A DNA stretch of 64,000 nucleotides from Escherichia phage chee24, in the sequence record NC_047885.1. One strand, written 5' to 3'. The position numbers and the translations under genes were made by a program. This document shows positions 10,311-35,669 of the stretch, piece by piece. Positions within the stretch are counted from its first letter, which is position 1. Each line of letters starts with the position of its first letter. The notes under the pieces were generated by a model that was given only the letters and a program-made list of their open reading frames with translations, searched no databases and was not told the DNA's origin.

Positions 10311-10339
10311 GTAATTTCTGGAAATGTGTTTTCAAAAAA

Positions 10340-10440: not shown

Positions 10441-10787
10441 TTCGTGAGAACTCTGGAGTTTCTAGGAAAGTGTTATGCCATCCTAGCAGATGAGCGACAA
10501 CAGGTGTATCATCTTGAATGTAAATTATGTGGACAAAAGTTTTACCTTTTATTTAAATAAAAGATCCCCCAATCTCGTAAGTCTGCTGCTCTAGGCGTTC
10601 AAGATCTGTATGCTAATCCCGTGAAAACTGCTGCAGAATACATCCTAACGCCAGGGGCGCTGGTGTACTCTTCGAGTTGGGATAGCAATAATCTTGTTGC
10701 CTAGAGCTAAAAACAGAAGTTGTTTTTAATCTATGAGATTATTATAACATGTGCCTTAATGAGTTGTCAAGAAGATTTTGTTAACGT

Positions 10788-11519
10788 TTATTCCTTCCGC
10801 TTGTATTTGAGAACGATACCCTTCGAGACCATGAAGAGGAAAGTTGCAAGATAGGAATGTGGGGATTTTAGCGCATCATAATCTACAGTTCCGAAAGAAC
10901 CTTCGCCAAATACCTCAGAGTTCTCAAATGTAGGAAGTAAACGTGCCAATCCTACAGCTCCTATAATCTTAAAGAATTGATCCCAGTCATTTAACATTGC
11001 TTTATGTGCAGACTGTAAGATTAATGGCATCTCTAGGTTCTTTTCGAGACATAGATGAACCTGCGCAATCGTAGAAGCAATCCCTAGCAACACTTCATCT
11101 TTTGTATAAGGGAATCCAGTATCTTTTCTTTGGAGTCTAGGAAGATGATCATATTCACAACGTTTAGGTGGGATGAACTTTTCCTCGGGATATAATTCTA
11201 ATGCAACTCTAACGTTTCCTTCTTTAAATACTGGAAGTTCCTGATCTGCAAAGACATGATATGAATCTGCCTTGAACCCTACAATCTTATCACCAACAGA
11301 ATTGATGATCTTTCTCATTGCAATATAAGAAGGGGATAGAGTTACGAATTTTTCTTCTTTATTATATTTAACAATTCCAGCTTCTGTATAAGCTGCGGGA
11401 TGAAACTCAGAACAGAATGCTACTGCATGAGCTTCATCAGGAGTTAGTTCAGAAACACATTTGCCGTCAGCATTCTTAGCCAGCTTAATAATAGTCTTTA
11501 AATTCTCACTAATACTCAT
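10788..11519 (-). CDS. hypothetical early protein (243 aa)
   Basis: ORF; first in a run of tightly packed leftward ORFs. Confidence 0.6.
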   Translation of the reverse strand: MSISENLKTIIKLAKNADGKCVSELTPDEAHAVAFCSEFHPAAYTEAGIVKYNKEEKFVTLSPSYIAMRKIINSVGDKIVGFKADSYHVFADQELPVFKEGNVRVALELYPEEKFIPPKRCEYDHLPRLQRKDTGFPYTKDEVLLGIASTIAQVHLCLEKNLEMPLILQSAHKAMLNDWDQFFKIIGAVGLARLLPTFENSEVFGEGSFGTVDYDALKSPHSYLATFLFMVSKGIVLKYKRKE

Positions 11520-11875
11520 ATATCGCTCGCTTGTTCTTCTAATGGGTTGGTAGGGGAGGTTTTCTTCTGTTGACTAGGTTTCTTAATTGTACTTGGCTGT
11601 TTACCTCTAGAAGTTTCAGCGTTATAAACATCTGCACCTCTGTTTCTAAGAACACTAGCAATCCCTGCTAGTGTTGGCCAAGCATATTCTGGCATTTCAA
11701 CAATCTGAGAAACAATATCTTCCATAACTAGATCTTCTGTAAATACAATATATTGAGGCCAATCTATATCTATCTCATCCTCTTTCCAATATTTATTAAG
11801 CGTCCAGCCATTTTCAGAGAATCTCTCTATTTTGAACTTTCCTTCTTTAATATAGCTTGTTAACTTTTTATTCAT
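11516..11875 (-). CDS. hypothetical protein (119 aa)
   Basis: ORF overlapping neighbours by 1-4 nt (operon-like). Confidence 0.55.
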   Translation of the reverse strand: MNKKLTSYIKEGKFKIERFSENGWTLNKYWKEDEIDIDWPQYIVFTEDLVMEDIVSQIVEMPEYAWPTLAGIASVLRNRGADVYNAETSRGKQPSTIKKPSQQKKTSPTNPLEEQASDI

Positions 11876-12489
11876 TAACTACCTCTCTTATTCTCGTCAA
11901 TAACAGCTCCCAATGCCTCCATAATAGTATCTTCTAAGCTTCCATGTTTACTAGGATTATTAAAATGAATAGTATAAACAGAGTTCCTAGAAACTCCAGC
12001 ATCCGCAGGTGCTACGCTTCGCATATCAGATTCAAAAGCTTCTTGGGTATGTTGCAGCTGTACAGAAGGGCCGTAATCTTCACCAAACTTATATGACTTC
12101 GTACTACTTACCACACCCCCACAAGGAACATTGTGCATATCCGACATTAATCTTTTATCGGAGTTATTCAGCATTGAGATTGTCCCTGACTGCCACGGAT
12201 CTCTAATAGTCACTGGAGTACTAGGGCGGTTCACCTCAGTCTTCACAAGTTTGTATCCTGCATCGATCAGTGCATTAATCAGGTTATCCGCCGGGATGCG
12301 AGCCGTACCAAAAATCTTACGAGCGTCCTCGAGCTTACCTTCAAGATCTTTACATGCTCTAAGGTCAGTGTGTGCAAATGTTAGCTTCATAGATTTGAAT
12401 TGTACAGTAGCAGTCAAATCTTTAAAGCTATAATCCCATGTGTTCAGTTCATGGTCTGGTACTACTTGAATAGGTTGTTGTGTAAACAT
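11875..12489 (-). CDS. hypothetical protein (204 aa)
   Basis: ORF in leftward operon. Confidence 0.6.
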   Translation of the reverse strand: MFTQQPIQVVPDHELNTWDYSFKDLTATVQFKSMKLTFAHTDLRACKDLEGKLEDARKIFGTARIPADNLINALIDAGYKLVKTEVNRPSTPVTIRDPWQSGTISMLNNSDKRLMSDMHNVPCGGVVSSTKSYKFGEDYGPSVQLQHTQEAFESDMRSVAPADAGVSRNSVYTIHFNNPSKHGSLEDTIMEALGAVIDENKRGS

Positions 12490-19857: not shown

Positions 19858-20274
19858 TTAATCTACTGCATGTATAAATCTTTTCCTAACTAGATACATA
19901 GTTATTGGGTAAATTGAGTACATAAGTATCGGGGAGAAAAGGGTGAAATACGCTGTAACTCCCCCAGCTAACATCAAAGGTATTAATGCTAGAGTAAGGG
20001 CCATAAGAATCATACCGAATGAAACAGCCAAAGCTATGGATATAGGATTCTCTAGTTCCATCCATAACCAACAATATTTCGTATCTCTATGGCAATTGCA
20101 TTTACAAACGCCGAATGAACCCATAATTATATACTCTAGTCCGTGAATAACCTTTATTAATAAGCTATTTCGGGTAGTTAATGCAACGATAGTAAAGACT
20201 ATCATTAAAACGAATACTACTAGACTTATTTTCCAGATACCTAGTAGCATCATAGTGAATAGTTCTGCAAACAT
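19858..20274 (-). CDS. multi-pass membrane protein (138 aa)
   Basis: ORF with 3-4 hydrophobic helices; directly downstream of endolysin. Confidence 0.5.
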   Translation of the reverse strand: MFAELFTMMLLGIWKISLVVFVLMIVFTIVALTTRNSLLIKVIHGLEYIIMGSFGVCKCNCHRDTKYCWLWMELENPISIALAVSFGMILMALTLALIPLMLAGGVTAYFTLFSPILMYSIYPITMYLVRKRFIHAVD

Positions 20275-20351: not shown

Positions 20352-20765
20352 TTAAACTAGTTCGACATGACCGCCATCATAGGTACCACGTTTTATTTCA
20401 TCGTGATAATCTCCCGAAGCATTCCAATCAGCACCAAAACGAAGTTTAATGCCTAGTTCTTTACCTGCTTGTTCAAAAGCCTTTTTAACTGCCCAAAATG
20501 CTTCTAAATCATTCCAATCAATCTTACCATTAATGTATGGAGCAAAATCAAGAGCATCCCCAGTAATATGCTTGCTTTTACTAGGATCTTTTAAGAATGA
20601 AGTACCATTAGCAATATTCTGGGCACTTTGTGCTACTGTACGAATACCCTGTACGATCGTGAAATCATAAGGAGATAATTCTAAAGCTCTACGAGCTACT
20701 TTTTGTAGCTCTGGCTTAACGGTAGCTAATTGTTTTTCGCTATTTTTACCAAATTTAAAACTCAT
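20352..20765 (-). CDS. lys: endolysin, L-alanyl-D-glutamate peptidase
   Basis: 137 aa; peptidase M15-like residues (H..D..H); size matches T5 endolysin; adjacent holin-like gene. Confidence 0.75.
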   Translation of the reverse strand: MSFKFGKNSEKQLATVKPELQKVARRALELSPYDFTIVQGIRTVAQSAQNIANGTSFLKDPSKSKHITGDALDFAPYINGKIDWNDLEAFWAVKKAFEQAGKELGIKLRFGADWNASGDYHDEIKRGTYDGGHVELV

Positions 20766-21418
20766 ATTGATCTACCTAAAGATCTCTGTTGTGGGGAACA
20801 GAGCTTTGTTAAATACTCGTTAAATTTCTCAGAATCGGCTGCATCTACAGGATTATCTTTCCAAGCAATACCAATATATCCAGCATAGATATTGTTTAGA
20901 TTGAAGTACGGACAAGTGTATATGTAATTAAAAGTAACGTTCTTAAACGCAGGTATATTTAACCCCATGTATTTATTTACTTTTACACTTAAATCCGATG
21001 CGTAGTTAAAGCCGTCTAAGTGACGTCTATATAGCTCAGACGTCTTATTTACCGCTTTATCGGCCAAGTCAGCCCTATCTAATTGCGCATTGCTTTCCCA
21101 TGCAATAATGTTAGAATAATCATTAATGGCATCGGGTTTATACTTGACTACAAAAACAGCATCCGCACCCGTTTGGGAAAAAAGCACCATGCTCTTTTCT
21201 CTAGCTACGTTAGGAAAATTACTTATCCTTTGAGTTTGAACATCCTGTAGAACCGCAGACGTGGAGAAAGTCTTTAAGAACGACATCACCTCACTAGTAT
21301 TACTAACAAATAAGAAAATAATGACAGCAACTAAGATAGTTAGCAGACGTTTAAGAAGCGATGCTGGATCTTTCGCTTCTTGGAGCAGTACCGTTAATAA
21401 TTGTAAGAACTTTTCCAA
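20762..21418 (-). CDS. putative holin (single-TM membrane protein)
   Basis: 218 aa; N-terminal TM helix; overlaps endolysin start by 4 nt. Confidence 0.5.
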   Translation of the reverse strand: MEKFLQLLTVLLQEAKDPASLLKRLLTILVAVIIFLFVSNTSEVMSFLKTFSTSAVLQDVQTQRISNFPNVAREKSMVLFSQTGADAVFVVKYKPDAINDYSNIIAWESNAQLDRADLADKAVNKTSELYRRHLDGFNYASDLSVKVNKYMGLNIPAFKNVTFNYIYTCPYFNLNNIYAGYIGIAWKDNPVDAADSEKFNEYLTKLCSPQQRSLGRSI

Positions 21419-21574
21419 TTGTAACCTCCTCTAACCAGTACCATTATACTAATTTTGGAGGAAAATTACAATGTGTTTTTAAAGATCACTTCTGGAGCAT
21501 AAAATTTTGTCGTTGTCAAGAAGAATTTTAGATAAAAGAAAAGCCAGGGTCGTTAAACCCTGGCTTAAAATTAC

Positions 21575-22174
21575 TTACTCTTCGTTATGCTCCTCGGATT
21601 GAGGTAACTGGGCTTTATTATATTGCTCAGATCGATATTTTGCCAAGATTTCAATACGCTTATGGATTTCTTTGCTATCTAGATAGATATTTTTGTTGTC
21701 TTTTACCATCTCGTCGATTTCGTCTATAGAGAAGAACGGATAGTAGACATCTAGCATCATATCTTCTACGAACTTGTTGTAAGATTCATAAGCTTTCTTG
21801 ATTTCTTGACCCTTCTCACAGAATCCGCCAGAGAACGTGTGTCCCATTAGCGTAGCATGTGGATGTACTACCCATCCATGACAGGATAGGAAAATTGTGC
21901 AGTAAGCAGAAGCACTAGGACCAATCAGGTGTCCTATAACTGTTCCACGGCAATTAGCAATTAAGTTAGATAACTGTGCAGCAGTATCAACATAACCACC
22001 AGGGCCATTAATCATCAGATTAATTTCGTCGTCCTCATTTGCTTGCATAAGTACCATTGATAAATCACGGTATTCATCCGGCGGGCCTAATTCTTCATCA
22101 AAGAAAAAGGTATACTCATTAGATTGGCGAATGGAGTGAAACAGGTTAGTCTTTTCTTCTTTTTTATTAGTCAT
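21575..22174 (-). CDS. ClpP-like serine peptidase
   Basis: 199 aa; ClpP-family motif INGPGG plus Ser/His region. Confidence 0.6.
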   Translation of the reverse strand: MTNKKEEKTNLFHSIRQSNEYTFFFDEELGPPDEYRDLSMVLMQANEDDEINLMINGPGGYVDTAAQLSNLIANCRGTVIGHLIGPSASAYCTIFLSCHGWVVHPHATLMGHTFSGGFCEKGQEIKKAYESYNKFVEDMMLDVYYPFFSIDEIDEMVKDNKNIYLDSKEIHKRIEILAKYRSEQYNKAQLPQSEEHNEE

Positions 22175-22186: not shown

Positions 22187-22939
22187 TTATCCAACTAGTG
22201 GTTCTAGCTCTAAGTCACAGAAGTTATAAACTTCTAGTTTAAGGTTATTGATACCATCGAATTTATTAACTAATTCGTGAGTAATATATTTTGCAGGAAT
22301 ACCACTTTCAGATGGATGATCTGATTTAATAGTGAACTTCTGCTCAGCGGGTACTACATTTACTATCAAAGAATCCATATCTAAATGATTTGTTTCTCTG
22401 AGTAACTCTCCTTCATTGGGGAATCTAACATCTGTTATTACGGCGACATCTGGGTCGTCTTTAGCGATGGATTGCTCCAGAATTATGAGCCAAATGCGTT
22501 CATGCACCAGCTGCCTTCCTAGCTCTGTTCCTACGAGCTGTAACATTTTTCTCGGAGAAATAAATAAACTATAAAGTCCGTCTTTTTTATTCTCTGAGAT
22601 AAGTTGTTGAGGATTAAGATATTTTTCCTCAAAAATAGGCCAAACGTACGAGAAGTCTTCAAACTTATCGATACCGTACTTAAACCACACATCTCTGGCT
22701 CGCTCCAGTTGAGATTGTGTGACCGTAAACCATTGGTCAATCTCTTTTCCCCTGCGCTCTCCTAGAAACTCTGGAGTTACACCGAGGATTACGGATGCAA
22801 GTTCATAAACGGGCTTAGCAAAACTATAACGACGGGATAAACACGTTGGATACGTGTCATTACACCAATCGATAATTAATTTTGCAACGGTATCTTTTCC
22901 CGAACCAGCTTCACCATGTAAACCGACTAATACTGACAT
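22187..22939 (-). CDS. deoxynucleoside monophosphate kinase
   Basis: 250 aa; P-loop GEAGSGKDT at N-terminus. Confidence 0.65.
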   Translation of the reverse strand: MSVLVGLHGEAGSGKDTVAKLIIDWCNDTYPTCLSRRYSFAKPVYELASVILGVTPEFLGERRGKEIDQWFTVTQSQLERARDVWFKYGIDKFEDFSYVWPIFEEKYLNPQQLISENKKDGLYSLFISPRKMLQLVGTELGRQLVHERIWLIILEQSIAKDDPDVAVITDVRFPNEGELLRETNHLDMDSLIVNVVPAEQKFTIKSDHPSESGIPAKYITHELVNKFDGINNLKLEVYNFCDLELEPLVG

Positions 22940-23292
22940 TAATCTTTCCTATTGTTAATTGGTGGATAATATACTAAACAACGTTTTTCATGCAAATCTT
23001 GGCGGTAGAAGCAAACCATACTTGTCAGTCGTGAGATATATGAATATTCTGCCTCACGGCATTTTGCCAACATATTCCAATCTTTATATGGTACGACTAC
23101 TACTACGCCATCTTCCCCATCTGTAGCTAATTTCTTTTCAAACTTAAAGTCAAAGCTACAAGGTTGAAGTCCTTTAGGCCAATCTACGTGAGCTGTTGGT
23201 AGCTCATGTGTAGGTTCTGGCTTTATTTCTTGTGCACAGCCTGTGATTGTGATTGCGGCTGCGAGCAGTATTCCAAGTTTCCAGTTAAACAT
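22939..23292 (-). CDS. lipoprotein, candidate o-spanin
   Basis: 117 aa; signal peptide with lipobox ITGC; start embedded in end of upstream TM/coiled-coil gene. Confidence 0.4.
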   Translation of the reverse strand: MFNWKLGILLAAAITITGCAQEIKPEPTHELPTAHVDWPKGLQPCSFDFKFEKKLATDGEDGVVVVVPYKDWNMLAKCREAEYSYISRLTSMVCFYRQDLHEKRCLVYYPPINNRKD

Positions 23293-23672
23293 GCTAATCT
23301 TTCCTCGAACTCCTTACTCTGCTTTTTAGCAATTAATGTAACCAATCCAGGCTTTGCAGCTATAATATCTTGACGACTAAGTGCTTTATCAAGCTGATTA
23401 ATTTTCTTGTCTAGATCTGCTTGCGAAACATTATTCATTGTGAAATACTGATTCATTCTAGTCTCACGAAGTTCGCTTTCAGCTTTCACCTTATTGAGGG
23501 AAGTCTCTAGAGAAGAAATCTTTTTAGTAGCTACCGCAAGATCTCCTGCTAAAGTCTCCACTTTATCTACTAAGTGATAAGCACCGAACCCGATGCCTAT
23601 CGCTAGACCTGCTCCCAGGATATACCACTTACCGTGCCATATTCCTGAAAGAAGTTTTTGTATCAAATCCAT
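23223..23672 (-). CDS. TM plus coiled-coil protein, candidate i-spanin
   Basis: 149 aa; N-terminal TM helix then predicted coiled coil; 70-nt overlap with lipoprotein gene. Confidence 0.4.
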   Translation of the reverse strand: MDLIQKLLSGIWHGKWYILGAGLAIGIGFGAYHLVDKVETLAGDLAVATKKISSLETSLNKVKAESELRETRMNQYFTMNNVSQADLDKKINQLDKALSRQDIIAAKPGLVTLIAKKQSKEFEERLACLTGNLEYCSQPQSQSQAVHKK

Positions 23673-24327
23673 GCGCTGCTAACCTGTCTTTATCTGATAC
23701 TTTAATCATATCAGGCTCACCAGTTCCTAGTACACCGAAGATATACTGTTCGAGAACTTGGTGTAAACGGTATAAGTTACTTTCAATTTCCTGCCACGGA
23801 ATACCGGACTGATGGAAACGAATGTTAGTCTGAATTACGAAGTTACGAACATCATCGTTATCGTTCTTCTTAATACCTTTCACATATGCAATTGGTACAC
23901 GCAGTTCGGATAAGATACGTTCTGCTTTAGGTTTTGCTTCAGCGAGCAAATCACGCATTGTTTCACGAACATCTCCGCGACTCTTATCCATTAAGTAAGA
24001 GCGAGCATGTAATCCCATCTCTTCCATTTTATCGAACATAGTGTCGAGGTTGAACGTTTTGAAGCTAAATGCTGGATGCCAGCAGTATAGCTCGTGTAAC
24101 CAGTAAACTTCACCTGCAACAAATAGTGGGTTTACAAAATATTCGAAATCACCACGGAAAGATAGCGAACCATCACGAAATACCTGGCGACTATGCACGA
24201 TGTTCTTTTCTGCATCATCAGTTACTTTAACTAGTAGCTCTTCAGTTTTACGCTCCCAAACACGATCTGGGTCGAACAAACTGTTCTGCAAATCATACAC
24301 ATCGGCGAACTTAGAAATAATCCTCAT
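23629..24327 (-). CDS. hypothetical protein (232 aa)
   Basis: ORF. Confidence 0.55.
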   Translation of the reverse strand: MRIISKFADVYDLQNSLFDPDRVWERKTEELLVKVTDDAEKNIVHSRQVFRDGSLSFRGDFEYFVNPLFVAGEVYWLHELYCWHPAFSFKTFNLDTMFDKMEEMGLHARSYLMDKSRGDVRETMRDLLAEAKPKAERILSELRVPIAYVKGIKKNDNDDVRNFVIQTNIRFHQSGIPWQEIESNLYRLHQVLEQYIFGVLGTGEPDMIKVSDKDRLAAHGFDTKTSFRNMAR

Positions 24328-24481
24328 ATTTAATCCTCTTGCCTCAATCTATAAACATATTATACAAAAGTTTGGGCATCTAAGCAACTAAAATTTTATT
24401 ATAAAAATAGCCCAGTCGCAAAAGTGCAGGCTGGGCTTTGTCATTATTTGCTTTTGCTAGTAAGCTGACTTAGTGTCAATC

Positions 24482-28027: not shown

Positions 28028-28104
28028 GCTCTTTTAATGGTAGTTAGTAGTGGATTTGAACCACTATAGTCGCTCCGTATGAAGGAGGTGCATAACCACT
28101 CTGC
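28028..28104 (-). tRNA. tRNA-Met (anticodon CAT; could be fMet, Met or Ile2-type)
   Basis: Hand-folded cloverleaf: 7-bp acceptor, T-loop GGTTCAAATCC, anticodon loop TTCATAC, encoded CCA. Confidence 0.7.
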
Positions 28105-28209
28105 CAACTAACTATTATGTTTTACTAGACTAAGTAAGTATTCTTTGTACTCTTTAGGCCAATTAGCTTTTTTAAACTTTCCTGGACGCATAGTCTTAAT
28201 TCCTAAATT

Positions 28210-28286
28210 TGGTACTCCGGGAGGGATTTAAACCCCCGATCTCTCGGTTATCAGCCGAGTGCTTTAGATCGCTAAGCTACCGAAGC
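28210..28286 (-). tRNA. tRNA-Ile (GAT)
   Basis: Hand-folded; anticodon loop CTGATAA; acceptor with G-U pairs; CCA encoded. Confidence 0.65.
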
Positions 28287-28287
28287 A

Positions 28288-28494
28288 TTAATATTTGGTT
28301 GCAGAACGTTTACCATTTCTAGGCGCACCGGGAAGTCGGGCACATTCCGCCATTTTTCTTTTTATTTTGCGGATGTTTTCAGGTGTTTGATCTTCTGGTT
28401 TTAGGCCAGATACATTACACCATAGTTTACCCTCCCATGCTGTAATGATCATTACGCCGTTACACATAATCTTTTCTGTAAAAGAAATTCTCAT
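28288..28494 (-). CDS. hypothetical protein (68 aa)
   Basis: ORF between tRNA genes. Confidence 0.4.
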   Translation of the reverse strand: MRISFTEKIMCNGVMIITAWEGKLWCNVSGLKPEDQTPENIRKIKRKMAECARLPGAPRNGKRSATKY

Positions 28495-28787
28495 TATCGT
28501 ATCTCGTTTAGGTAAGAAGTATAATGGAATTTAGCTTCTCCAGTCTTATCTATTTCTACCTCAGTTCGTGGTACTTGACGAACTACATCATGAATCATCT
28601 TATAGCGAATGCCTTTAGCTGGTTCATGATCTTTTGGAAATACCTGTTTAACCGTTACTACTTTATACTCTTCACGCGGTGTTAACACAACTACTTGATC
28701 ACCTTCTTTGATTTTCCAAGAAGATGGAAATTCATAGGTATATCTTTGGCCACCAGTTTGGAATACTACAGAAAGATAACGCTTCAT
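28494..28787 (-). CDS. hypothetical protein (97 aa)
   Basis: ORF preceded by promoter at 28818-28846. Confidence 0.5.
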   Translation of the reverse strand: MKRYLSVVFQTGGQRYTYEFPSSWKIKEGDQVVVLTPREEYKVVTVKQVFPKDHEPAKGIRYKMIHDVVRQVPRTEVEIDKTGEAKFHYTSYLNEIR

Positions 28788-28817
28788 TTGGTTTCCCTCC
28801 CATTAATTTATATAAAT

Positions 28818-28846
28818 ATTATAACAAGAAATAAGAGAGAAGGCAA
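28818..28846 (-). promoter_or_regulatory. sigma70-type early promoter (-35 TTGCCT, -10 TATAAT)
   Basis: ATTATA-N17-AGGCAA; same 27-nt conserved core. Confidence 0.55.
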
Positions 28847-28861
28847 ATGAATTTTTAAATT

Positions 28862-28936
28862 TGGTGCTCCCACCAGGAATCGAACCCGGTTCAGATGCTT
28901 ACAAGGCAACTGCATCGCCAGCAATGCTTTAGGAGC
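28862..28936 (-). tRNA. tRNA-Thr (TGT)
   Basis: Hand-folded; T-loop GGTTCGATTCC; anticodon loop CTTGTAA. Confidence 0.65.
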
Positions 28937-29103
28937 GATAATCCCATTATTTCAATGGGATTTCTTTTTCAAATACAGGGGATTTATCTGACATTACTGT
29001 CATTGCCAACTGCTGAAGAAACTCGAAAGTTAGCTTTAAACGTTCTTCGCCTAATTCAATCTCAACGTATTTCTTTTGTTTGTCAACCTTTAATTTTAGG
29101 TTA

Positions 29104-29325
29104 TCAGCCATCTTCGGATTCTCGTTGCTTGGCTACTGCTAGCCAGTCTGGTAAAAGAAACTTAGTACGAAACTCTTCATACGTTTCTTCTGGGTAAAAG
29201 CTAAAACCTCCTTTCTCATCATTCAAGATAACAGAGCCGTCAGTTTGTTCATAAGCTCGGTATGTTTCCCCAATAATGATAACTCGTTTATCGGTACTTT
29301 TATTACGAAACTCAAAAACGTGCAT
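29104..29325 (-). CDS. hypothetical protein (73 aa)
   Basis: ORF between tRNA genes. Confidence 0.4.
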   Translation of the reverse strand: MHVFEFRNKSTDKRVIIIGETYRAYEQTDGSVILNDEKGGFSFYPEETYEEFRTKFLLPDWLAVAKQRESEDG

Positions 29326-29339
29326 AGAGATTCCTTATT

Positions 29340-29414
29340 TGGTGCGGGATACGAGAGTCGAACTCGTGTCTACTGGTTGGAAGCCAGTTATTCTAACCAC
29401 TGAACTAATCACGC
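29340..29414 (-). tRNA. tRNA-Gly (TCC)
   Basis: Hand-folded; anticodon arm ACTGG-CTTCCAA-CCAGT; T-loop TTCGACT. Confidence 0.65.
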
Positions 29415-29421
29415 ATTAATT

Positions 29422-29497
29422 TGGCTGGAGAAGGAGGAATCGAACCTACCATTAACGGAGTCAAAGGCCGTTGTGCTAACCGTTACACTACTCTCCA
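29422..29497 (-). tRNA. tRNA-Gln (TTG)
   Basis: Hand-folded; anticodon loop CTTTGAC; T-loop TTCGATT. Confidence 0.6.
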
Positions 29498-29503
29498 ATA
29501 ATT

Positions 29504-29579
29504 TGGCTGGGATGCCACGGATCGAACGTGGAACCTTCGGAGTCAGAGGCCGACGATCTGCCAATTGATCTACATCCCA
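29504..29579 (-). tRNA. tRNA-Gln (CTG)
   Basis: Hand-folded; anticodon loop CTCTGAC; perfect T-stem CCACG/CGTGG. Confidence 0.65.
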
Positions 29580-29592
29580 ATAATTCTTTACT

Positions 29593-29787
29593 CTACGGAA
29601 GTGGAGTAGTTGGCTCAGGTTCTTCAAGGCGCTTACCTTCATGATCTACTCGAATGACTCCGCATCCTTCGCAAACCACAACTGCACCATAACCTTCTTT
29701 GACTTCGGCTTCTGTAATCAGACCAGATAAGTCACCAGTATCTCTGCCCCACATATCAAGGGAGCATTGCTTGCAGAAATCAGCCAT
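29593..29787 (-). CDS. Cys-rich small protein (64 aa)
   Basis: ORF with CxxC..CxxC; between tRNA genes. Confidence 0.4.
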   Translation of the reverse strand: MADFCKQCSLDMWGRDTGDLSGLITEAEVKEGYGAVVVCEGCGVIRVDHEGKRLEEPEPTTPLP

Positions 29788-29811
29788 ATTTTATTTCCTA
29801 TTTAAGTTAAT

Positions 29812-29889
29812 TTGGGGTGGCTAGTGGAATTCGAATCCACATAGGCCTGATTCACAATCAGGATCATTAACCAATTATGATATAGCCAC
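29812..29889 (-). tRNA. tRNA-His (GTG)
   Basis: Hand-folded; anticodon arm CCTGA-TTGTGAA-TCAGG; extra 5' G typical of tRNA-His. Confidence 0.7.
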
Positions 29890-30117
29890 AATTGAAAACT
29901 CGCAGGGTTAGCGAAACCATCCTCAATTAGCATGTTCTAGAATACTAATCAAGTTATCTCCTATTGCACGCAGCTCAAGACGAGTACGAATTTTCAATTG
30001 TGGCGGCTCTCAGAAACTCTTCTATTCTAGCCCCAGAAGCTTACCCCCGAACGCATGTCGGGAAAGTCTTTCCAAGCGCATCAAATAGCACCGTTACACT
30101 TTGAGCCATTGATATAT

Positions 30118-30203
30118 CAAGGAACAGAAGGAGTTGAACCTTCACGAGATAGACCATTTATCTCAACCGCTTTTAAGGTATATTTCTAGGAGTGGATGTT
30201 CCT
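30118..30203 (-). other. tRNA-like element (perfect acceptor and T-arm, non-canonical D/anticodon region)
   Basis: Acceptor AGGAACA/TGTTCCT, T-arm GAAGG-TTCAACT-CCTTC, internal hairpin GAGATA..TATCTC; no standard anticodon loop found. Confidence 0.35.
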
Positions 30204-30257
30204 AGTAAACCTATTCGGCAGTCCCGTCTACCAATTCCGGCATATTCCAAGAATTTT

Positions 30258-30431
30258 TTATAAACCAGCAGAAGCCTCATTTAAAGCATCAACAATAGCT
30301 TCACGCTGGGTCATTCCGTACCCGGTGGAATCTAGGTGCGGCAAATAAGCCATCCACCCCTTATCTGTTTCATGAAGACATGCTTTAAATTTTTTACCAT
30401 CCTTCATTGTTACAGTAACTGTTTTGCTCAT
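30258..30431 (-). CDS. hypothetical small protein (57 aa)
   Basis: Hand-translated ORF with AAGGAAG RBS. Confidence 0.35.
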   Translation of the reverse strand: MSKTVTVTMKDGKKFKACLHETDKGWMAYLPHLDSTGYGMTQREAIVDALNEASAGL

Positions 30432-30451
30432 AAGACTTCCTTATAGTTAAT

Positions 30452-30541
30452 TGGCAGAAGATAATGGAGTCGAACCATCACCGTATCACTACAGCGGGCT
30501 GGTTTTCAAGACCAGTTACGTACCACTACGTCCTATCTTCT
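30452..30541 (-). tRNA. tRNA-Ser (TGA), class II
   Basis: 90 nt; anticodon arm CTGGT-CTTGAAA-ACCAG; long variable arm. Confidence 0.65.
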
Positions 30542-30554
30542 AGTATTTATTATA

Positions 30555-30902
30555 CTAATAGTCACTCGTACTAGTGAAATCTTCTACTTTTCCACAAATT
30601 TTACAAGTCCTACGATGATAGTAGGTAATTTTTACTTTAGACCAGCCATCGTGATCATTACCTAGGTTTTCTGTTACTCCCCAAGTATGGGAACACTCAT
30701 TTTCAATTTGCTTAGTAAGAGCGTTATAGCGAGTATAAAACTCCTCCTGGGCAATAGCAAACTCTTTCTGTAGTTTATCACGAGCAATAATAGCACGTTC
30801 CAGATATGTTAAATCGGGCATTCCAGCTTTTTCAGCAGCATCTATAACCTTATCTTCATCTAAAGATGCTAAAAACTCTAGAGCTTTATCTTTTGCTAAC
30901 AT
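30555..30902 (-). CDS. hypothetical protein (115 aa)
   Basis: ORF. Confidence 0.5.
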   Translation of the reverse strand: MLAKDKALEFLASLDEDKVIDAAEKAGMPDLTYLERAIIARDKLQKEFAIAQEEFYTRYNALTKQIENECSHTWGVTENLGNDHDGWSKVKITYYHRRTCKICGKVEDFTSTSDY

Positions 30903-30924
30903 TATTATTATTACCTCAAGTGTT

Positions 30925-31015
30925 TGGCGGAAGAGGAGAGATTTGAACTCTCAAGCCGTTTTACCAGTCAGCCACTTTCCAAGCGGTTTTCGTCGCCAAT
31001 TCGATTTGCTCTTCC
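30925..31015 (-). tRNA. tRNA-Ser (GGA), class II
   Basis: 91 nt; perfect T-arm GAGAG-TTCAAAT-CTCTC; anticodon loop TTGGAAA; long variable arm; resembles E. coli tRNA-Ser architecture. Confidence 0.55.
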
Positions 31016-31127
31016 AATAATAAGATGATGCCTCTATCACGCCAGACAGTTACGCCTCGCTGGGATTCGAACCCATTAAAACAGCTCAACCGAGATAGTA
31101 GGTTTAATTTACTCTGACCATCAAATT

Positions 31128-31204
31128 TGGTGCGTGACAAGGGATTCGAACCCTCAAAACCCGACTTCTAAGGACGGTATGTATGCCAATTCCATCAATC
31201 ACGC
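31128..31204 (-). tRNA. tRNA with anticodon TAG (Leu-type anticodon, class I shape)
   Basis: 77 nt; 7-bp acceptor, T-loop TTCGAAT, anticodon loop CTTAGAA, discriminator A; short variable arm. Confidence 0.5.
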
Positions 31205-31209
31205 GTATT

Positions 31210-31288
31210 TGGTGGAGGATAACGAATTCGAATCGTTCTGATGTCCTCGGTGCAAGCGAGGTGTCCACTCCCAGCAGACCCATCCCCC
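31210..31288 (-). tRNA. tRNA-Ala (TGC)
   Basis: Hand-folded; anticodon arm CCTCG-CTTGCAC-CGAGG; G3-U70 pair in acceptor stem. Confidence 0.65.
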
Positions 31289-31546
31289 AAAATCTTTAGT
31301 TTACTAAGGCTATTAGCTCGGCGTAACTACAGCACCTTCGCTTCGAGCGGAAGGAACTGCGTCATCTCGCAAACCCGATACACTATTCAGTTGCCATGAA
31401 TCTAGTGGACTAATCTAGAACTTCTCCCAAATCGTAGGGATCGTGCTTTTTGGCAGCCAGTCCTAGGTCGAGCTAATACCTTAGTGAACTATGATGAGGA
31501 TTTCTCCCCATCAATTTATATAAATATTATAACAAGAAATTAAGCA

Positions 31547-31906
31547 TTAAGCAAGTACATTTTTGCAGATTTCTTGTAATTCCTTTACATCACGAACGTA
31601 AAGGTAGTCTGAACTTCCAGAGTGCATACTTTGCATAAACACACCCTCATCTGGCGCAGTATCCTTCAGAGTAATTCCTAACCAAAAAGCGGCAAAACGA
31701 GGTGTTACCTCACCTTGACTTGCCTTGAATACATCGGCTTCTGTGATCTCCTGACCAGTAGAAAGTCCCATATACGGTACGTTCAGATCAATATCTTTGT
31801 AGAATTCAGCTAGGTCTTGTTCGAAGTCCCAACCTTTAGAGATAGCGAACTCTATTGTTACATGACCGAAATAGCCTTGAACCTTGCTTGATAATTGCAT
31901 TTGCAA
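31547..31906 (-). CDS. hypothetical protein (119 aa)
   Basis: ORF. Confidence 0.5.
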   Translation of the reverse strand: MQMQLSSKVQGYFGHVTIEFAISKGWDFEQDLAEFYKDIDLNVPYMGLSTGQEITEADVFKASQGEVTPRFAAFWLGITLKDTAPDEGVFMQSMHSGSSDYLYVRDVKELQEICKNVLA

Positions 31907-31925
31907 TTCCTTATTTTGAGTTAAT

Positions 31926-31999
31926 TGGTACTCGGTGATAGAATCGAACTATCGCAACCGCCGTGTAAAGACGGGGTTCTCCCATTAAACTAACCGAGC
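31926..31999 (-). tRNA. tRNA-Val (TAC)
   Basis: Hand-folded; perfect T-arm GATAG-TTCGATT-CTATC; anticodon loop TTTACAC. Confidence 0.6.
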
Positions 32000-32132
32000 A
32001 AAAGATTTGCTACTAAAAATGCTTCGAACAGAAATTCACAAAATCCCGCTAAAAACATACCTATTGTAAAATCGGCAGAAAATACATAGGAATCTTTTAT
32101 TTTCTGCTTCATTAAGTAAAACCAGATAGTCA

Positions 32133-32450
32133 TTAAAATCTCTCCATTCTAAAGCCAATGAAGTAAGGTGCATTACACGGAACATGCTTAAGATCTTTAA
32201 GAGTAATTTTACGTCCTAAGCGTCGTTCCATACAAGTGAAACATAGAACAATATCTTTGGGCTGCTCTTTTCTTATCTGATCCCAGACCCAATCTTCAAC
32301 CATACACATTTCATGGTATTGTTCACAGTCTCGACAATAATGACACTGATGTTCTGGTACTTTTTGATTTTTAATACACAGTTCAGTAAAGCGTTTTCCG
32401 GCTCTGCCAGACATTTCTGATATTGTTTCTAGAACTTTGTTAATATTCAT
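32133..32450 (-). CDS. Cys/His-rich protein (105 aa)
   Basis: ORF with several Cys/His clusters. Confidence 0.45.
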   Translation of the reverse strand: MNINKVLETISEMSGRAGKRFTELCIKNQKVPEHQCHYCRDCEQYHEMCMVEDWVWDQIRKEQPKDIVLCFTCMERRLGRKITLKDLKHVPCNAPYFIGFRMERF

Positions 32451-32467
32451 AACAAATTCCTTTAAAT

Positions 32468-32546
32468 TGGTAGATCGCCTGGGACTCGAACCCAGAACCT
32501 TCCGATTAAAAGTCGGATGCTACTAAACCTATTGAGCTAGCGACCT
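32468..32546 (-). tRNA. tRNA-Lys (TTT)
   Basis: Hand-folded; anticodon arm TCCGA-CTTTTAA-TCGGA; T-arm CTGGG-TTCGAGT-CCCAG. Confidence 0.7.
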
Positions 32547-32739
32547 ATTAGTAGCCATTATATACTTCTTTAATAGAATAGACTTTTAGGTAAGAATGAT
32601 TAATCCCAAACTCCGCCATTACTTCTTTTTCATTTTTTCCATAATGTGCAAGTAAGAATCTTGAGGTATTATTACCTAAACGTTTGTCACTTACTACTAA
32701 TCGAAATACTTTCATTTCGAAATCCTCTATTAAAAGGGA

Positions 32740-32813
32740 AGCGGGTGCAGGAATCGAACCTACCTCTTTCTAGCTTATGAGACTAGCGATCTCTACCAGA
32801 GATCTAACCCGCA
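32740..32813 (-). tRNA. tRNA-Met/Ile2 (CAT)
   Basis: Hand-folded; anticodon arm CTAGT-CTCATAA-GCTAG; CCA not encoded; acceptor register uncertain. Confidence 0.55.
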
Positions 32814-32819
32814 ATTGTT

Positions 32820-32895
32820 TGGTCAGTGCGGCAGGACTCGAACCTGCGACCCGAAGCATCCAAGGCTCCCACGCTACCAACTGCGCTACGCACTG
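32820..32895 (-). tRNA. tRNA-Pro (TGG)
   Basis: Hand-folded; perfect acceptor; D-arm GCGC-AGTTGGTA-GCGT; anticodon loop CTTGGAT. Confidence 0.7.
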
Positions 32896-33347
32896 TTAAT
32901 TTTGTTAACTCACTTTATAAGATATATTATACAGAGAATTAAGTAAAATAGCAAATGAATTTTTAATAAATTTACTTATTATGTAGGCCGCCTGGAGGCT
33001 ACCAACCCCACGGCTGACAAAGAAGTTTGCGAGACTTCTCTTAAAAGCCAGAATAGACCCGCCGGTCTATCGGAACCTACATAATAAGTAAACTTTATAG
33101 TGTCATTCTAGGCAGGACTCGAACCTGCTATCACTTGTGCGGACTTACGAGAACCATTCTTTCACTCGAATCGAACGAGCTTCTGCCCTCGCCAAGCTGG
33201 TTTCCCCCATCAACCACGCTAGAATGTTAGATTGTTTTCAGTGCAAGAGTCCGAGTCTTGGACACGACCGCTTCGCAAGTACATAGGCAGCTTATCATGA
33301 GTCAGCACTTCCGAATTGCTAGCTCCGTGTTCTGCACTGAAATTTTA

Positions 33348-33695
33348 TTAGTTTAATCGTAAAGTATTATCTACTTCACCATTAATTGTTCGGCATTCCT
33401 CTGGAATTGCCGGGGTGGCCTTGTATTCCCACCATTCAGCACCGTCATATTCCCCACGTTCTAGCCAAGTTCCATCGGCAAACCATACATTACCATAAAG
33501 TAATTGTCCGCCGTATCCAGAATCATATTCAAAGTCTAGGTTATTAAGAAAATCCTCAATATCTTCTTCTGTATAGCCTAAAGGTAATACCCAGACTTTT
33601 TTGTCCCCATAATACCCAAATTCTATTTTAATACACTTAACTTCAGAATTAGTATTTTTTAAGGCAAGTAACAGCTCTTCTTTAGCATTACGCAT
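33348..33695 (-). CDS. hypothetical protein (115 aa)
   Basis: ORF. Confidence 0.5.
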   Translation of the reverse strand: MRNAKEELLLALKNTNSEVKCIKIEFGYYGDKKVWVLPLGYTEEDIEDFLNNLDFEYDSGYGGQLLYGNVWFADGTWLERGEYDGAEWWEYKATPAIPEECRTINGEVDNTLRLN

Positions 33696-33720
33696 AATAT
33701 ATTCTCATACTGAATTAATT

Positions 33721-33797
33721 TGGCGCGACCGATGGGATTTGAACCCACATTCTCTCCCGTGACAGGGGAGTACCATTACCAAGCCAGCCCCGGTCGC
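33721..33797 (-). tRNA. tRNA-Asp (GTC)
   Basis: Hand-folded; anticodon arm CTCCC-CTGTCAC-GGGAG; T-loop TTCAAAT. Confidence 0.7.
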
Positions 33798-33806
33798 ATA
33801 ATTTAT

Positions 33807-33992
33807 TTACTCAGCTTTGAGTTTTTCAATAGCTGCATTAAGTTCTTTAAGAAACTCTTTTCGTACATTAAGACGATTGAGACTTACTAGTATATCATGT
33901 TTAAGTTCTTCGATGTATTTCTTCTCAACTTCAATATTGTTGATAGTACTATCACGATGAACTTCTAGCTGCGCAATCACATTCTTGGACAT
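33807..33992 (-). CDS. hypothetical protein (61 aa)
   Basis: ORF. Confidence 0.4.
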   Translation of the reverse strand: MSKNVIAQLEVHRDSTINNIEVEKKYIEELKHDILVSLNRLNVRKEFLKELNAAIEKLKAE

Positions 33993-34094
33993 GCTTGTTT
34001 CCTCAGTTATTAATGAAAATGGTATCTGTGGCTGAATTCGATGTCAGCAATGATAGCTGGTTGGCTACCGGTTTACTTAACTCTACACAGAATT

Positions 34095-34172
34095 TGGCGG
34101 TTCCTGCTGGATTCGAACCAGCAACCCTCAACTTAACAAGATGCCGCTCTAACCAATTAGAGCTAAGGAACC
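34095..34172 (-). tRNA. tRNA-Asn (GTT)
   Basis: Hand-folded; perfect T-arm GCTGG-TTCGAAT-CCAGC; anticodon loop TTGTTAA; anticodon stem imperfect. Confidence 0.55.
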
Positions 34173-34667
34173 ATATAAGTCAGAACTAGAGTTAATACGT
34201 CCTAGATATTTACTAAGATCCCTAGAATTTATACTAAACCACTCATGTTCTTTTAAATCTTTGAAATACTGGTGAATTAGTTTTTCACCTTTTCGTTTGT
34301 CAAACCAAAAAGACCAATGCTCTAACTTATAATCCCTATAGGGGGAATAAGTCTGATATTGAGCTAATCTCTCTTTTGGATTTTGACTCATACCTATTTT
34401 ATACTGATTTTTCCATGCAGGATTACTAATACAGTATACAAAACCTTCGGAAATAGGAAGTTTATTTTCCTGCTTAAACTTTATAAAGGAAAGTGCAGCA
34501 AGTTTTCTTGAATACATAGTATTCGTATTCTTTTTGGTATTACCATTGGTTCCTGAAAGATTTATATATTCTTCTATAAATCTCTGGATTAGTTCTGCGG
34601 TTATATAGAAGGGCTCATTAGTAACAACGCCTTTCTTTACCAAACTATCAAAAACTTTTGTATGCAC
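34149..34667 (-). CDS. T5orf172-domain (GIY-YIG-like) protein
   Basis: 172 aa; the Pfam T5orf172 family is named after a 172-aa ORF of phage T5; 3' end overlaps tRNA-Asn call by about 24 nt. Confidence 0.6.
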   Translation of the reverse strand: MHTKVFDSLVKKGVVTNEPFYITAELIQRFIEEYINLSGTNGNTKKNTNTMYSRKLAALSFIKFKQENKLPISEGFVYCISNPAWKNQYKIGMSQNPKERLAQYQTYSPYRDYKLEHWSFWFDKRKGEKLIHQYFKDLKEHEWFSINSRDLSKYLGRINSSSDLYGSLALIG

Positions 34668-34688
34668 TACTTCTTTCCTTTAGTAATT

Positions 34689-34764
34689 TGGACGACCGCA
34701 TGAGATTTGAACTCACATAAAAAGGATTTGCAATCCTTCGCCTAAGCCATTCAGCCAACGGTCG
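34689..34764 (-). tRNA. tRNA-Cys (GCA)
   Basis: Hand-folded; anticodon arm AAGGA-TTGCAAA-TCCTT; T-loop TTCAAAT. Confidence 0.7.
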
Positions 34765-34942
34765 ATTTATCTTGTTTTTCGAGATCTTCAAATTCTAAAT
34801 CATTGAAGTTCCCTAGAGTACGGGAGTAGAACCCGTCTCCTACGTCATAGCCTGATTTACCACAATCACACATTTTAAACTCTCTATAACGAGTGAAAAT
34901 ATGTTCAGAACCACAACACTTAAATTTAACTAACATTTTCAT
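34751..34942 (-). CDS. Cys-containing small protein (63 aa)
   Basis: ORF. Confidence 0.4.
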   Translation of the reverse strand: MKMLVKFKCCGSEHIFTRYREFKMCDCGKSGYDVGDGFYSRTLGNFNDLEFEDLEKQDKSTVG

Positions 34943-35181
34943 TTAACACGCTCCGGTAAATCTTCGAGTTTATATTGGGTAGCCACATTAGCAGCATCTA
35001 GTAACAAACCCATATGTTTAAGAATCCTGGTGATAGCCTCGCCTTCTGCTTCTTCTACAAAGCAACGTAGATTAACGAAGTCAATACCACCATCCATACC
35101 AGAGAAAATGTTTAGTAAGCGAAACATTACCAGCTTACGTTCTTTCAATTCTTGTTCTGTCATGTTGCTTCTCCAGTTCAA
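34939..35181 (-). CDS. hypothetical protein (80 aa)
   Basis: ORF. Confidence 0.45.
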   Translation of the reverse strand: MNWRSNMTEQELKERKLVMFRLLNIFSGMDGGIDFVNLRCFVEEAEGEAITRILKHMGLLLDAANVATQYKLEDLPERVK

Positions 35182-35213
35182 TTTATGTAATTATTATATA
35201 GAACTTTTGGAAA

Positions 35214-35501: not shown

Positions 35502-35503
35502 TT

Positions 35504-35578: not shown

Positions 35579-35584
35579 AAATTT

Positions 35585-35660: not shown

Positions 35661-35669
35661 TGCAGAAAT

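What the first reader, a model, noticed from the sequence alone, without database searches (positions are those of the whole stretch)
22939..23672. Candidate two-component spanin pair 2 kb from the holin-endolysin genes
A 149-aa TM plus coiled-coil protein overlaps by 70 nt a 117-aa lipoprotein with lipobox ITGC and several periplasmic cysteines. This architecture is typical of i-spanin/o-spanin pairs. They are separated from holin (20762-21418) and endolysin (20352-20765) by ClpP-like and dNMP kinase genes.
Basis: partly seen in the sequence, partly recalled or inferred. Interest (0 to 1): 0.5.

Follow-up and report, generated by a model that had tools for sequence, protein, structure and literature searches.

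The report
Known T5-type overlapping spanin gene pair
These two overlapping genes are the already catalogued outer-membrane-disrupting "spanin" pair of phage T5 and its relatives, so the finding is correct but ordinary; its only new value is that the public record of this phage annotates both genes badly.

Summary
The window matches the first 64 kb of T5-like phages pork29/saus47N, with 100% identity over the 1.2 kb tested and the same coordinates.

- **The genes.** ORF 23223-23672(-) encodes 149 aa with one N-terminal transmembrane segment and a helical, heptad-patterned periplasmic domain. It overlaps ORF 22939-23292(-) by exactly 70 nt. That ORF encodes 117 aa with lipobox ITG|C19, Ala at +2 and four further cysteines.
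- **Identity to T5.** The two proteins are 95% and 98% identical to T5 genes T5.045 and T5.044. Kongari et al. 2018 (PMC6139136) describe these as the "T5 family" of two-component spanins, overlapping by 70 bp.
- **Link to tested spanins.** Both proteins fall in PHROG 739 and 812, as do T4 PseT.3 and PseT.2, which complement lambda Rz/Rz1. The two cysteines essential in T4 PseT.2 are invariant here.
- **Gene order.** i-spanin, o-spanin, dNMP kinase, ClpP-like protease, terminator, promoter, holin, endolysin. This order is kept across four Demerecviridae lineages.
- **Small additions.** The deposited record omits the o-spanin and starts the i-spanin after its membrane segment. T5-like spanins carry extra cysteine pairs that T4's lack. 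Homing endonucleases occupy different junctions of this locus in relatives.
- **Gap.** I found no direct lysis experiment on T5 spanins.

The parts
23223..23672 (-). i-spanin gene (149 aa), homologue of T5 T5.045 and T4 PseT.3
   Evidence: ORF. PHROG 739 'Rz-like spanin' E 5.5e-38. 95% identical to T5.045. 28% identical to T4 PseT.3, pairwise E 8e-6.
23568..23627 (-). Codons for the single N-terminal transmembrane segment of the i-spanin (about residues 16-35, WYILGAGLAIGIGFGAYHLV)
   Evidence: Highest 19-residue Kyte-Doolittle mean, 1.55, at residue 17. Helical in the AlphaFold model. The deposited record starts the gene at GTG Val38 (window 23561), which removes this segment (sequence).
23484..23567 (-). 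Heptad-repeat (coiled-coil-like) start of the periplasmic domain, residues 36-63
   Evidence: All eight a/d positions are hydrophobic (V,L,L,A,I,L,L,V). Score 0.85 against shuffle mean 0.52 (sd 0.09); 6 of 2000 shuffles reach it.
23340..23357 (-). Conserved AKPGLV motif of the i-spanin (residues 106-111); K107, P108 and L110 are invariant from T5-likes to T4
   Evidence: Alignment A2.
23223..23292 (-). 70-nt dual-coding overlap. It encodes the i-spanin C-terminal tail (A127-K149, including C128 and C136) and, in the +2 frame, the o-spanin signal peptide and lipobox
   Evidence: The same 70-bp overlap is reported for T5 in PMC6139136 and seen in T5 coordinates 22802-22871.
22939..23292 (-). o-spanin gene (117 aa precursor, 99 aa mature lipoprotein), homologue of T5 T5.044 and T4 PseT.2
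   Evidence: ORF. PHROG 812 'Rz-like spanin' E 8.8e-30. 98% identical to T5.044. 28% identical to T4 PseT.2, pairwise E 8e-8. Preceded by a GAGGA Shine-Dalgarno about 9 nt upstream. Not annotated in the source record.
23236..23292 (-). Lipoprotein signal peptide and lipobox ITG|C19 of the o-spanin
   Evidence: Regex and hydropathy. G18-C19 is invariant in seven sequences spanning 22-98% identity.
22978..23013 (-). Codons for C94...C105 (VCFYRQDLHEKRC), aligned with C87/C98 of T4 PseT.2
   Evidence: Invariant columns in alignment A1 and the pairwise alignment. Both T4 cysteines are essential for lysis according to PMC6139136.
24393..24421 (-). Promoter-like site upstream of the 232-aa ORF that precedes the i-spanin; probable start of the transcription unit holding the spanin genes
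   Evidence: Consensus match, 9 of 12. This is weak on its own, since the scan found no more promoter-like sites in this region than in shuffled sequence. A promoter is annotated at the equivalent T5 position.
21541..21566 (-). Intrinsic terminator hairpin (11-bp stem plus T-run) after the ClpP-like gene; it separates the spanin/dnk unit from the holin-endolysin unit
   Evidence: A terminator is annotated at the equivalent T5 position, followed by a promoter for the holin. Window promoter-like site 21443-21471, 10 of 12.
20352..21418 (-). Functional partners: T-type holin (20762-21418) and M15-type peptidase endolysin (20352-20765)
   Evidence: Pfam PF11031 E 4.8e-113. PHROG 860 holin and PHROG 465 endolysin.

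Best explanation
The pair is the two-component spanin of a T5-like phage (Tequintavirus), orthologous to T5 T5.045/T5.044.

Shown here: sequence, architecture, homology and conserved gene order.

Inferred from the lambda Rz/Rz1 and T4 PseT.3/PseT.2 literature:
- The 149-aa protein inserts in the inner membrane by its N-terminal segment and extends a helical, coiled-coil-prone domain into the periplasm.
- The 117-aa precursor is lipidated on Cys19 and cleaved by signal peptidase II. Because residue +2 is Ala, the Lol system sorts it to the inner leaflet of the outer membrane.
- The two periplasmic domains bind each other, and the complex threads through the peptidoglycan mesh. It accumulates harmlessly from the early phase, being co-transcribed with dnk.
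- When the T-type holin triggers and the endolysin destroys the murein, the complexes are free to oligomerise and change conformation. They then fuse the inner and outer membranes, which removes the last barrier to phage release.
- C94/C105 of the o-spanin probably form the homotypic disulfide links that are essential in T4 PseT.2.
For: - The window is 100% identical over 1.2 kb to T5-like phages pork27/29, saus47N/111K and poul124.
- Both ORFs and the 70-nt overlap are present.
- PHROG 739 and 812 'Rz-like spanin' match at E 5.5e-38 and 8.8e-30. T4 PseT.3 and PseT.2 hit the same two families at E 1.3e-37 and 5e-42.
- The proteins are 95% and 98% identical to T5.045 and T5.044. RefSeq annotates these as Rz-like spanins, with notes of similarity to PseT.2.
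- Kongari et al. 2018 list the T5 spanin family and its 70-bp overlap, and show that T4 PseT.3/PseT.2 complement lambda RzamRz1am and need both PseT.2 cysteines.
- The lipobox Gly-Cys, C94 and C105, and the i-spanin motif K-P-x-L are invariant across T5-like, Klebsiella, Proteus and T4-like members.
- The order i-spanin, o-spanin, dnk, ClpP-like, holin, endolysin is conserved in Tequintavirus, Epseptimavirus, Klebsiella T5-likes and Novosibvirus.
- Supporting features are the transmembrane segment, the heptads and the helical model.
Against: - I found no direct experiment on T5-type spanins. Only one paper in the searchable library discusses them, and it is bioinformatic for T5.
- There are no Pfam or NCBIfam family hits and no solved structures, so the support is homology to T4 plus architecture.
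- Single-sequence structure models are of low confidence (pLDDT 65 and 49).
- Lipidation, outer-membrane sorting, complex formation and membrane fusion are all inferred.
- The Shine-Dalgarno of the i-spanin is weak (AGG, 11 nt upstream).
Confidence: 0.93

Rival explanations
1. The genes are true spanin homologues but are dispensable or redundant for lysis in T5-like phages. Another factor, or shear forces, would do the outer-membrane step, and the pair would be retained for another reason, such as a role early in infection given its early-operon position.
For: The genes sit in a transcription unit with dnk, separated from the holin-endolysin unit by a terminator and a promoter. I found no published T5 spanin phenotype.
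Against: T4 has the same split layout, with its spanin genes far from t and e, and its pair is functional. The lipobox and the essential cysteines are strongly conserved down to 22-25% identity. The genes are kept intact even where homing endonucleases have inserted at their borders.
Confidence: 0.04
2. The 117-aa lipoprotein is mainly a surface-modifying or exclusion lipoprotein, like T5 Llp, which blocks the FhuA receptor. The upstream membrane protein would then be an unrelated partner.
For: It is an early-expressed lipoprotein in a phage known to encode another lipoprotein with such a role (Llp is mentioned in PMC4342426). At 99 aa mature it is larger than lambda Rz1.
Against: Its only family match is the PseT.2-type spanin family PHROG 812. 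It is always paired with a PseT.3-type membrane protein immediately upstream. The C-terminal C-x10-C motif essential for T4 spanin function is invariant. No direct sequence comparison with Llp was made, because Llp lies outside the window.
Confidence: 0.02
3. The overlapping 117-aa ORF is a chance open frame inside and next to real genes, which is how the deposited annotation implicitly treats it.
For: MF431731 and its sister records do not annotate it.
Against: The frame is open and conserved in 562 phage records, down to 25% identity. The lipobox is invariant in the seven diverse sequences aligned. It has its own GAGGA ribosome-binding site. It stays intact as a separate gene in phiR201, where an endonuclease gene splits the pair.
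Confidence: 0.01

Closest known systems
Phage T5 T5.045 / T5.044 (T5 spanin family of Kongari et al. 2018; overlapped class)
   Same: The proteins are 95% and 98% identical. They share the 70-nt overlap, the lipobox ITGC, the same cysteines and the same downstream neighbours dnk, ClpP-like, holin and lys.
   Different: The first ~10 cytoplasmic residues of the i-spanin differ. T5 has the HNH homing endonuclease gene hegF inserted between the upstream 232-aa gene and the i-spanin. In the window that gene is absent, and the i-spanin start overlaps the upstream gene by 44 nt.
Phage T4 PseT.3 / PseT.2 (separated class; experimentally validated)
   Same: They fall in the same PHROG families 739 and 812. 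Identity is about 28% for both pairs. The AKPGLV motif, the lipobox and the C-terminal C-x10-C of the o-spanin are conserved. In both phages the spanin genes lie apart from the T-type holin and the endolysin.
   Different: The T4 genes abut, sharing 4 nt, whereas these overlap by 70 nt. The T4 i-spanin is 117 aa, lacks cysteines and ends before the C-x7-C tail seen here. The T4 o-spanin lacks C45 and C78.
Yersinia phage phiR201 / Salmonella phage Shivani spanins (T5 family, separated by a homing endonuclease)
   Same: The proteins are orthologous, 80% (i-spanin) and 86% (o-spanin) identical to the window's. The flanking genes are the same.
   Different: A ~700-bp endonuclease gene lies between the i- and o-spanin genes, so the pair is no longer overlapped. 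The i-spanin tail after C136 and the first residues of the o-spanin signal peptide are replaced.
Lambda Rz / Rz1 (embedded class) and P2 LysB / LysC (overlapped prototype)
   Same: The predicted topology and division of labour are the same, and so, presumably, is the membrane-fusion mechanism. P2 LysB/LysC is the published prototype of the overlapped arrangement (PMC6139136).
   Different: The scans returned no Pfam family at all, so none of the lambda-type spanin models matched. Lambda Rz1 is wholly embedded in Rz and, from general knowledge, is short (40 aa mature) and proline-rich. This o-spanin is 99 aa mature with 8% proline. The window's spanin genes are not contiguous with the holin and endolysin genes.

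Membership tests
Two-component spanin, overlapped architecture (criteria of Summer et al. 2007 / Kongari et al. 2018) | i-spanin with a single N-terminal transmembrane domain (type II, N-in/C-out) | tested here: met
   One hydrophobic segment at residues ~16-35, KD19 1.55, helical in the model. Orientation itself was not testable.
Two-component spanin, overlapped architecture (criteria of Summer et al. 2007 / Kongari et al. 2018) | Periplasmic domain of the i-spanin predicted alpha-helical or coiled-coil | tested here: met
   The AlphaFold single-sequence model has helices 2-79, 84-99, 107-116 and 120-129 (pLDDT 65). Four perfect heptads at residues 36-63; 6 of 2000 shuffles reach the score.
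Two-component spanin, overlapped architecture (criteria of Summer et al. 2007 / Kongari et al. 2018) | o-spanin with a signal peptidase II signal and lipobox, and no inner-membrane retention residue (Asp) at +2 | tested here: met
   MFNWKLGILLAAAITITG|CA: lipobox ITGC, Cys19, Ala20. G-C is invariant in 7 diverse homologues. No dedicated lipoprotein predictor was available.
Two-component spanin, overlapped architecture (criteria of Summer et al. 2007 / Kongari et al. 2018) | o-spanin gene starts inside the i-spanin gene in another frame and extends beyond its stop | tested here: met
   70-nt overlap at 23223-23292, +2 frame; the o-spanin continues 284 nt past the i-spanin stop.
Two-component spanin, overlapped architecture (criteria of Summer et al. 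2007 / Kongari et al. 2018) | At least one periplasmic cysteine available for homotypic intermolecular disulfide bonding | tested here: met
   i-spanin has C128 and C136. o-spanin has C45, C78, C94 and C105. Actual disulfide formation was not testable.
Two-component spanin, overlapped architecture (criteria of Summer et al. 2007 / Kongari et al. 2018) | Required for outer-membrane disruption: null mutants arrest as spherical cells; the two subunits form a complex | not testable with these tools
   Needs genetics and biochemistry. I found no published test for T5-type spanins.
T5 spanin family (Kongari 2018) / PHROG 739 + PHROG 812 | Significant full-length sequence similarity to family members for both subunits | tested here: met
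   PHROG E 5.5e-38 and 8.8e-30. 95% and 98% identity to T5.045 and T5.044.
T4 PseT.3/PseT.2 spanin family (separated class) | Homology to PseT.3/PseT.2, including the two essential C-terminal cysteines of PseT.2 | tested here: met
   Pairwise E 8e-6 and 8e-8 at 28% identity. C94/C105 align with the T4 cysteines. Same PHROGs.
T4 PseT.3/PseT.2 spanin family (separated class) | Separated gene architecture and a cysteine-free i-spanin | tested here: not met
   The genes overlap by 70 nt, and the i-spanin carries C128/C136 in a C-terminal extension that T4-like members lack. It is therefore a sister subfamily, not a T4-type member.
Lambda Rz/Rz1 (embedded class) | Sequence membership in the Rz/Rz1 protein families, with the o-spanin gene wholly embedded in the i-spanin gene | tested here: not met
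   No Pfam hit for either protein at E <= 0.01. The o-spanin extends beyond the i-spanin stop.
Unimolecular spanin (T1 gp11 type) | [quoted passage not shown] | tested here: not met
   The lipoprotein has no hydrophobic segment outside its signal peptide. Its C-terminus is ...CLVYYPPINNRKD.

The most novel reading that the evidence does not exclude
T5-like (Demerecviridae) spanins may use a disulfide scheme different from both lambda and T4. Compared with their T4 homologues they have gained a cysteine pair in the o-spanin (C45/C78). They have also gained a C-x7-C tail on the i-spanin (C128/C136), and this tail is encoded exactly in the stretch that also encodes the o-spanin signal peptide. 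This could mean a covalent i-spanin dimer in addition to the T4-type o-spanin links, or even a heterotypic i-o link. The overlap would then tie the evolution of the i-spanin tail to the lipoprotein signal.
Probability: 0.2. Interest if true: 0.25.

Novelty: already known. Interest (0 to 1): 0.07.

Why it matters
It matters little for discovery, because the T5 spanin pair, its 70-bp overlap and its kinship to T4 PseT.3/PseT.2 are already in RefSeq annotation and in the 2018 spanin census.

The practical value is in annotation. In the deposited records of this phage group (MF431731-MF431735) the o-spanin is not called, and in MF431731, the one record examined in detail, the i-spanin is started at an internal GTG that removes its membrane anchor. 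Automated lysis-gene inventories of these candidate biocontrol phages would therefore miss the outer-membrane step.

The locus is also a tidy natural series for studying how homing endonucleases reshape overlapping genes. It occurs with no insert (this window), with an HNH gene upstream (T5) and with a GIY-YIG gene between the two genes (phiR201 and Shivani).

Tried and rejected
- **Pfam and NCBIfam scans of both proteins.** Neither gave a family above threshold. The only hit was a sub-threshold FtsL-like match for the i-spanin (20.8 bits against a cut-off of 50). I put it down to a generic transmembrane-plus-coiled-coil resemblance and rejected it.
- **Sequence search of the PDB.** Nothing scored better than E 0.047, so there is no solved relative.
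- **Single-sequence AlphaFold models.** The i-spanin model is helical but of low confidence (pLDDT 65). The o-spanin model is unreliable (pLDDT 49), so I drew no fold conclusions and ran no fold search.
- **Large homologue searches not run.** I did not run the search for homologous proteins, the search of protein representatives or metagenome scans, because the identity of the pair was already settled and they could not change the verdict.
- **Promoter and terminator scan.** Promoter-like hits are no more frequent than in shuffles (16 against 16.8). I therefore cite only the sites that coincide with T5's annotated promoters and terminators.
- **GCGC and nick-motif check.** Local dinucleotide content explains most of the apparent enrichment of GCGC in the first 11 kb.

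Full report
**1. What the window is**

A 1.2-kb query around the finding is 100% identical to five T5-like phages from meat products (pork27, pork29, saus47N, saus111K, poul124; MF431731-MF431735). For pork29 and saus47N the coordinates are identical to the window's, so the window is probably the first 64 kb of one of those genomes. These phages are classified in Demerecviridae, Tequintavirus.

**2. The observation**

- Two minus-strand ORFs exist exactly as described: 23223-23672 (149 aa) and 22939-23292 (117 aa).
- They share 70 nt. The downstream ATG straddles the Ala127/Cys128 codons of the upstream gene and reads in the +2 frame.
- The upstream protein has one hydrophobic segment at about residues 16-35.
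- That segment is followed by four perfect a/d heptads at residues 36-63, a pattern reached by 6 of 2000 shuffles.
- A low-confidence single-sequence AlphaFold model (pLDDT 65) shows an almost wholly helical protein.
- The downstream protein begins MFNWKLGILLAAAITITG|CA. It has a canonical lipobox, Cys19 and Ala at +2, so there is no Asp retention signal. Four more cysteines lie in the 99-aa mature part (C45, C78, C94, C105). It has its own GAGGA ribosome-binding site.
- Its stop overlaps the start of the dNMP kinase gene (TAATG).
- The stated neighbours are all confirmed:
  - dNMP kinase, 22187-22939.
  - ClpP-like protease, 21575-22174.
  - T-type holin, 20762-21418 (PF11031, E 5e-113).
  - M15-type endolysin, 20352-20765.
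- The holin lies 1.5 kb from the o-spanin stop.

**3. What it is**

- Both proteins match PHROG families labelled 'Rz-like spanin': phrog_739 at E 5.5e-38 and phrog_812 at E 8.8e-30.
- They are 95% and 98% identical to T5 T5.045 and T5.044. RefSeq annotates both as Rz-like spanins, with notes of similarity to T4/RB69/Aeh1 PseT.2. In T5 they overlap at 22802-22871, which is also 70 nt.
- Kongari et al. 2018 (PMC6139136) list a 'T5 family' for both i- and o-spanins. They state that the T5 spanins overlap by 70 bp. They also state that in phiR201 and Shivani a ~700-bp GIY-YIG homing-endonuclease gene separates the pair.
- The finding is therefore a correct rediscovery of a catalogued gene pair.

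**4. Link to tested spanins**

- T4 PseT.3 and PseT.2 fall in the same PHROGs, at E 1.3e-37 and 5e-42.
- They align to the window proteins at 28% identity, with pairwise E 8e-6 and 8e-8.
- According to PMC6139136, the T4 pair complements lambda RzamRz1am, and both PseT.2 cysteines (C87, C98) are essential.
- I aligned seven sequences of each subunit: the window, T5, phiR201, a Klebsiella T5-like phage, a Proteus Novosibvirus, the Proteus T4-like phage PM2, and T4.
  - In the o-spanin, the lipobox Gly-Cys is invariant, and so are the two C-terminal cysteines, C94 and C105 here.
  - In the i-spanin, K107, P108 and L110 of the AKPGLV motif are invariant.
- The extra cysteines C45 and C78 of the o-spanin occur only in the Demerecviridae members. 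The same is true of the C-x7-C tail (C128/C136) of the i-spanin. T4-type i-spanins end before that tail.

**5. Context and expression**

- The order i-spanin, o-spanin, dnk, ClpP-like, holin, endolysin is conserved in Tequintavirus (T5, VSe12), Epseptimavirus (phiR201), Klebsiella T5-like phages and Proteus Novosibvirus.
- In the window a strong hairpin terminator (21541-21566) follows the ClpP-like gene, and a promoter-like site (21443-21471) precedes the holin.
- Another promoter-like site (24393-24421) precedes the 232-aa gene upstream of the i-spanin.
- These sites coincide with promoters and terminators annotated in T5. Promoter-like matches in general are no more frequent here than in shuffled sequence, so I rely on the coincidence with T5, not on the scan alone.
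- The spanin genes thus appear to be transcribed with dnk, separately from the holin-endolysin unit. This parallels T4, where pseT.3 and pseT.2 lie far from t and e.

**6. Mechanism**

The mechanism is inferred from the lambda and T4 literature. Only sequence features are shown here.

- The i-spanin is anchored in the inner membrane.
- The o-spanin is lipidated on Cys19 and sorted to the outer membrane.
- Their periplasmic domains form a complex through the murein mesh.
- After the holin triggers and the endolysin degrades the murein, the complexes oligomerise, collapse and fuse the two membranes.
- C94/C105 probably form the homotypic links seen in T4.
- The role of the additional cysteines is unknown.

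**7. Annotation problem**

- MF431731, the one source record examined in detail, has no o-spanin gene.
- That record starts the i-spanin at GTG Val38 (window 23561). This deletes the membrane anchor and leaves a 'hypothetical protein' (sequence).
- The four sister records also show only two hypothetical proteins and the kinase under the 1.2-kb query.
- In a spread sample of 40 of the 562 matching records, labels under the o-spanin match vary widely. They range from 'o-spanin' to 'hypothetical protein', 'putative terminase' or nothing.

**8. Mobile-element variation**

- T5 carries the HNH endonuclease gene hegF between the upstream 232-aa gene and the i-spanin. Its i-spanin has a different N-terminal ~10 residues.
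- The window lacks hegF, and its i-spanin start overlaps the upstream gene by 44 nt.
- phiR201 has an endonuclease gene between the two spanin genes.

**9. Dead ends**

- Pfam, NCBIfam and PDB sequence searches gave nothing usable.
- The o-spanin structure model was unreliable (pLDDT 49), so I ran no fold search.
- I found no paper reporting a genetic test of T5-type spanins.

**10. Verdict**

The novelty class is 'already known', and interest is low. The residual points of mild interest are the mis-annotation in the source record and the lineage-specific cysteines.

Noticed in passing
window 19858-20274 (-): A 138-aa ORF with several hydrophobic segments lies directly downstream of the endolysin. 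It is the homologue of T5.039, which T5's record notes 'contains four transmembrane domains'. In T5 it sits between the terminator after lys and the next promoter. It is not annotated in MF431731 and has no NCBIfam hit. It could be a further lysis-cassette membrane protein.
   Followed up: partly
window 23629-24327 (-): A 232-aa protein of unknown function (PHROG 4243, no Pfam hit) overlaps the i-spanin start by 44 nt. Homologues occupy the same position in VSe12, T5, phiR201 and a Klebsiella T5-like phage; the Proteus Novosibvirus has a shorter (141-aa) ORF there with a similar N-terminus. T5 has the HNH endonuclease gene hegF inserted between it and the i-spanin.
   Followed up: partly
window 22754-22758 (-) and 23673-23677 (-): The AGCGC inside dnk aligns exactly with the site T5's record annotates as a major single-chain interruption (nick; consensus PuGCGC). 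A second AGCGC on the same strand abuts the i-spanin ATG.
   Followed up: partly
window 1-12000 versus 12001-64000: GCGC occurs 58 times in the first 12 kb (Markov-1 expectation 55) but only 44 times in the remaining 52 kb (expectation about 75). GC content is similar in both parts (0.37-0.42). This marks a dinucleotide-composition boundary near 11-12 kb, presumably the end of the terminal-repeat/pre-early region, with mild GCGC avoidance beyond it.
   Followed up: partly
window 28038-41671 (-): A cluster of 26 tRNA genes, all on the minus strand, as expected for a T5-like phage. It includes an unusually long 94-nt tRNA-Glu call (35670-35763) and a tRNA-Ser call with the odd anticodon ACT (41597-41671).
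   Followed up: no
L009 (Yersinia phage phiR201) 1903-2334: The RefSeq i-spanin of phiR201 is annotated from an internal Met (locus 1957), which cuts into the transmembrane segment. The full ORF from 1903 restores an N-terminus like the window's. The Klebsiella phage vB_Kpn_K7_rec4 o-spanin is likewise annotated as a 51-aa fragment (L006 3175-3330), whereas the 109-aa ORF from 3001 carries the lipobox.
   Followed up: partly
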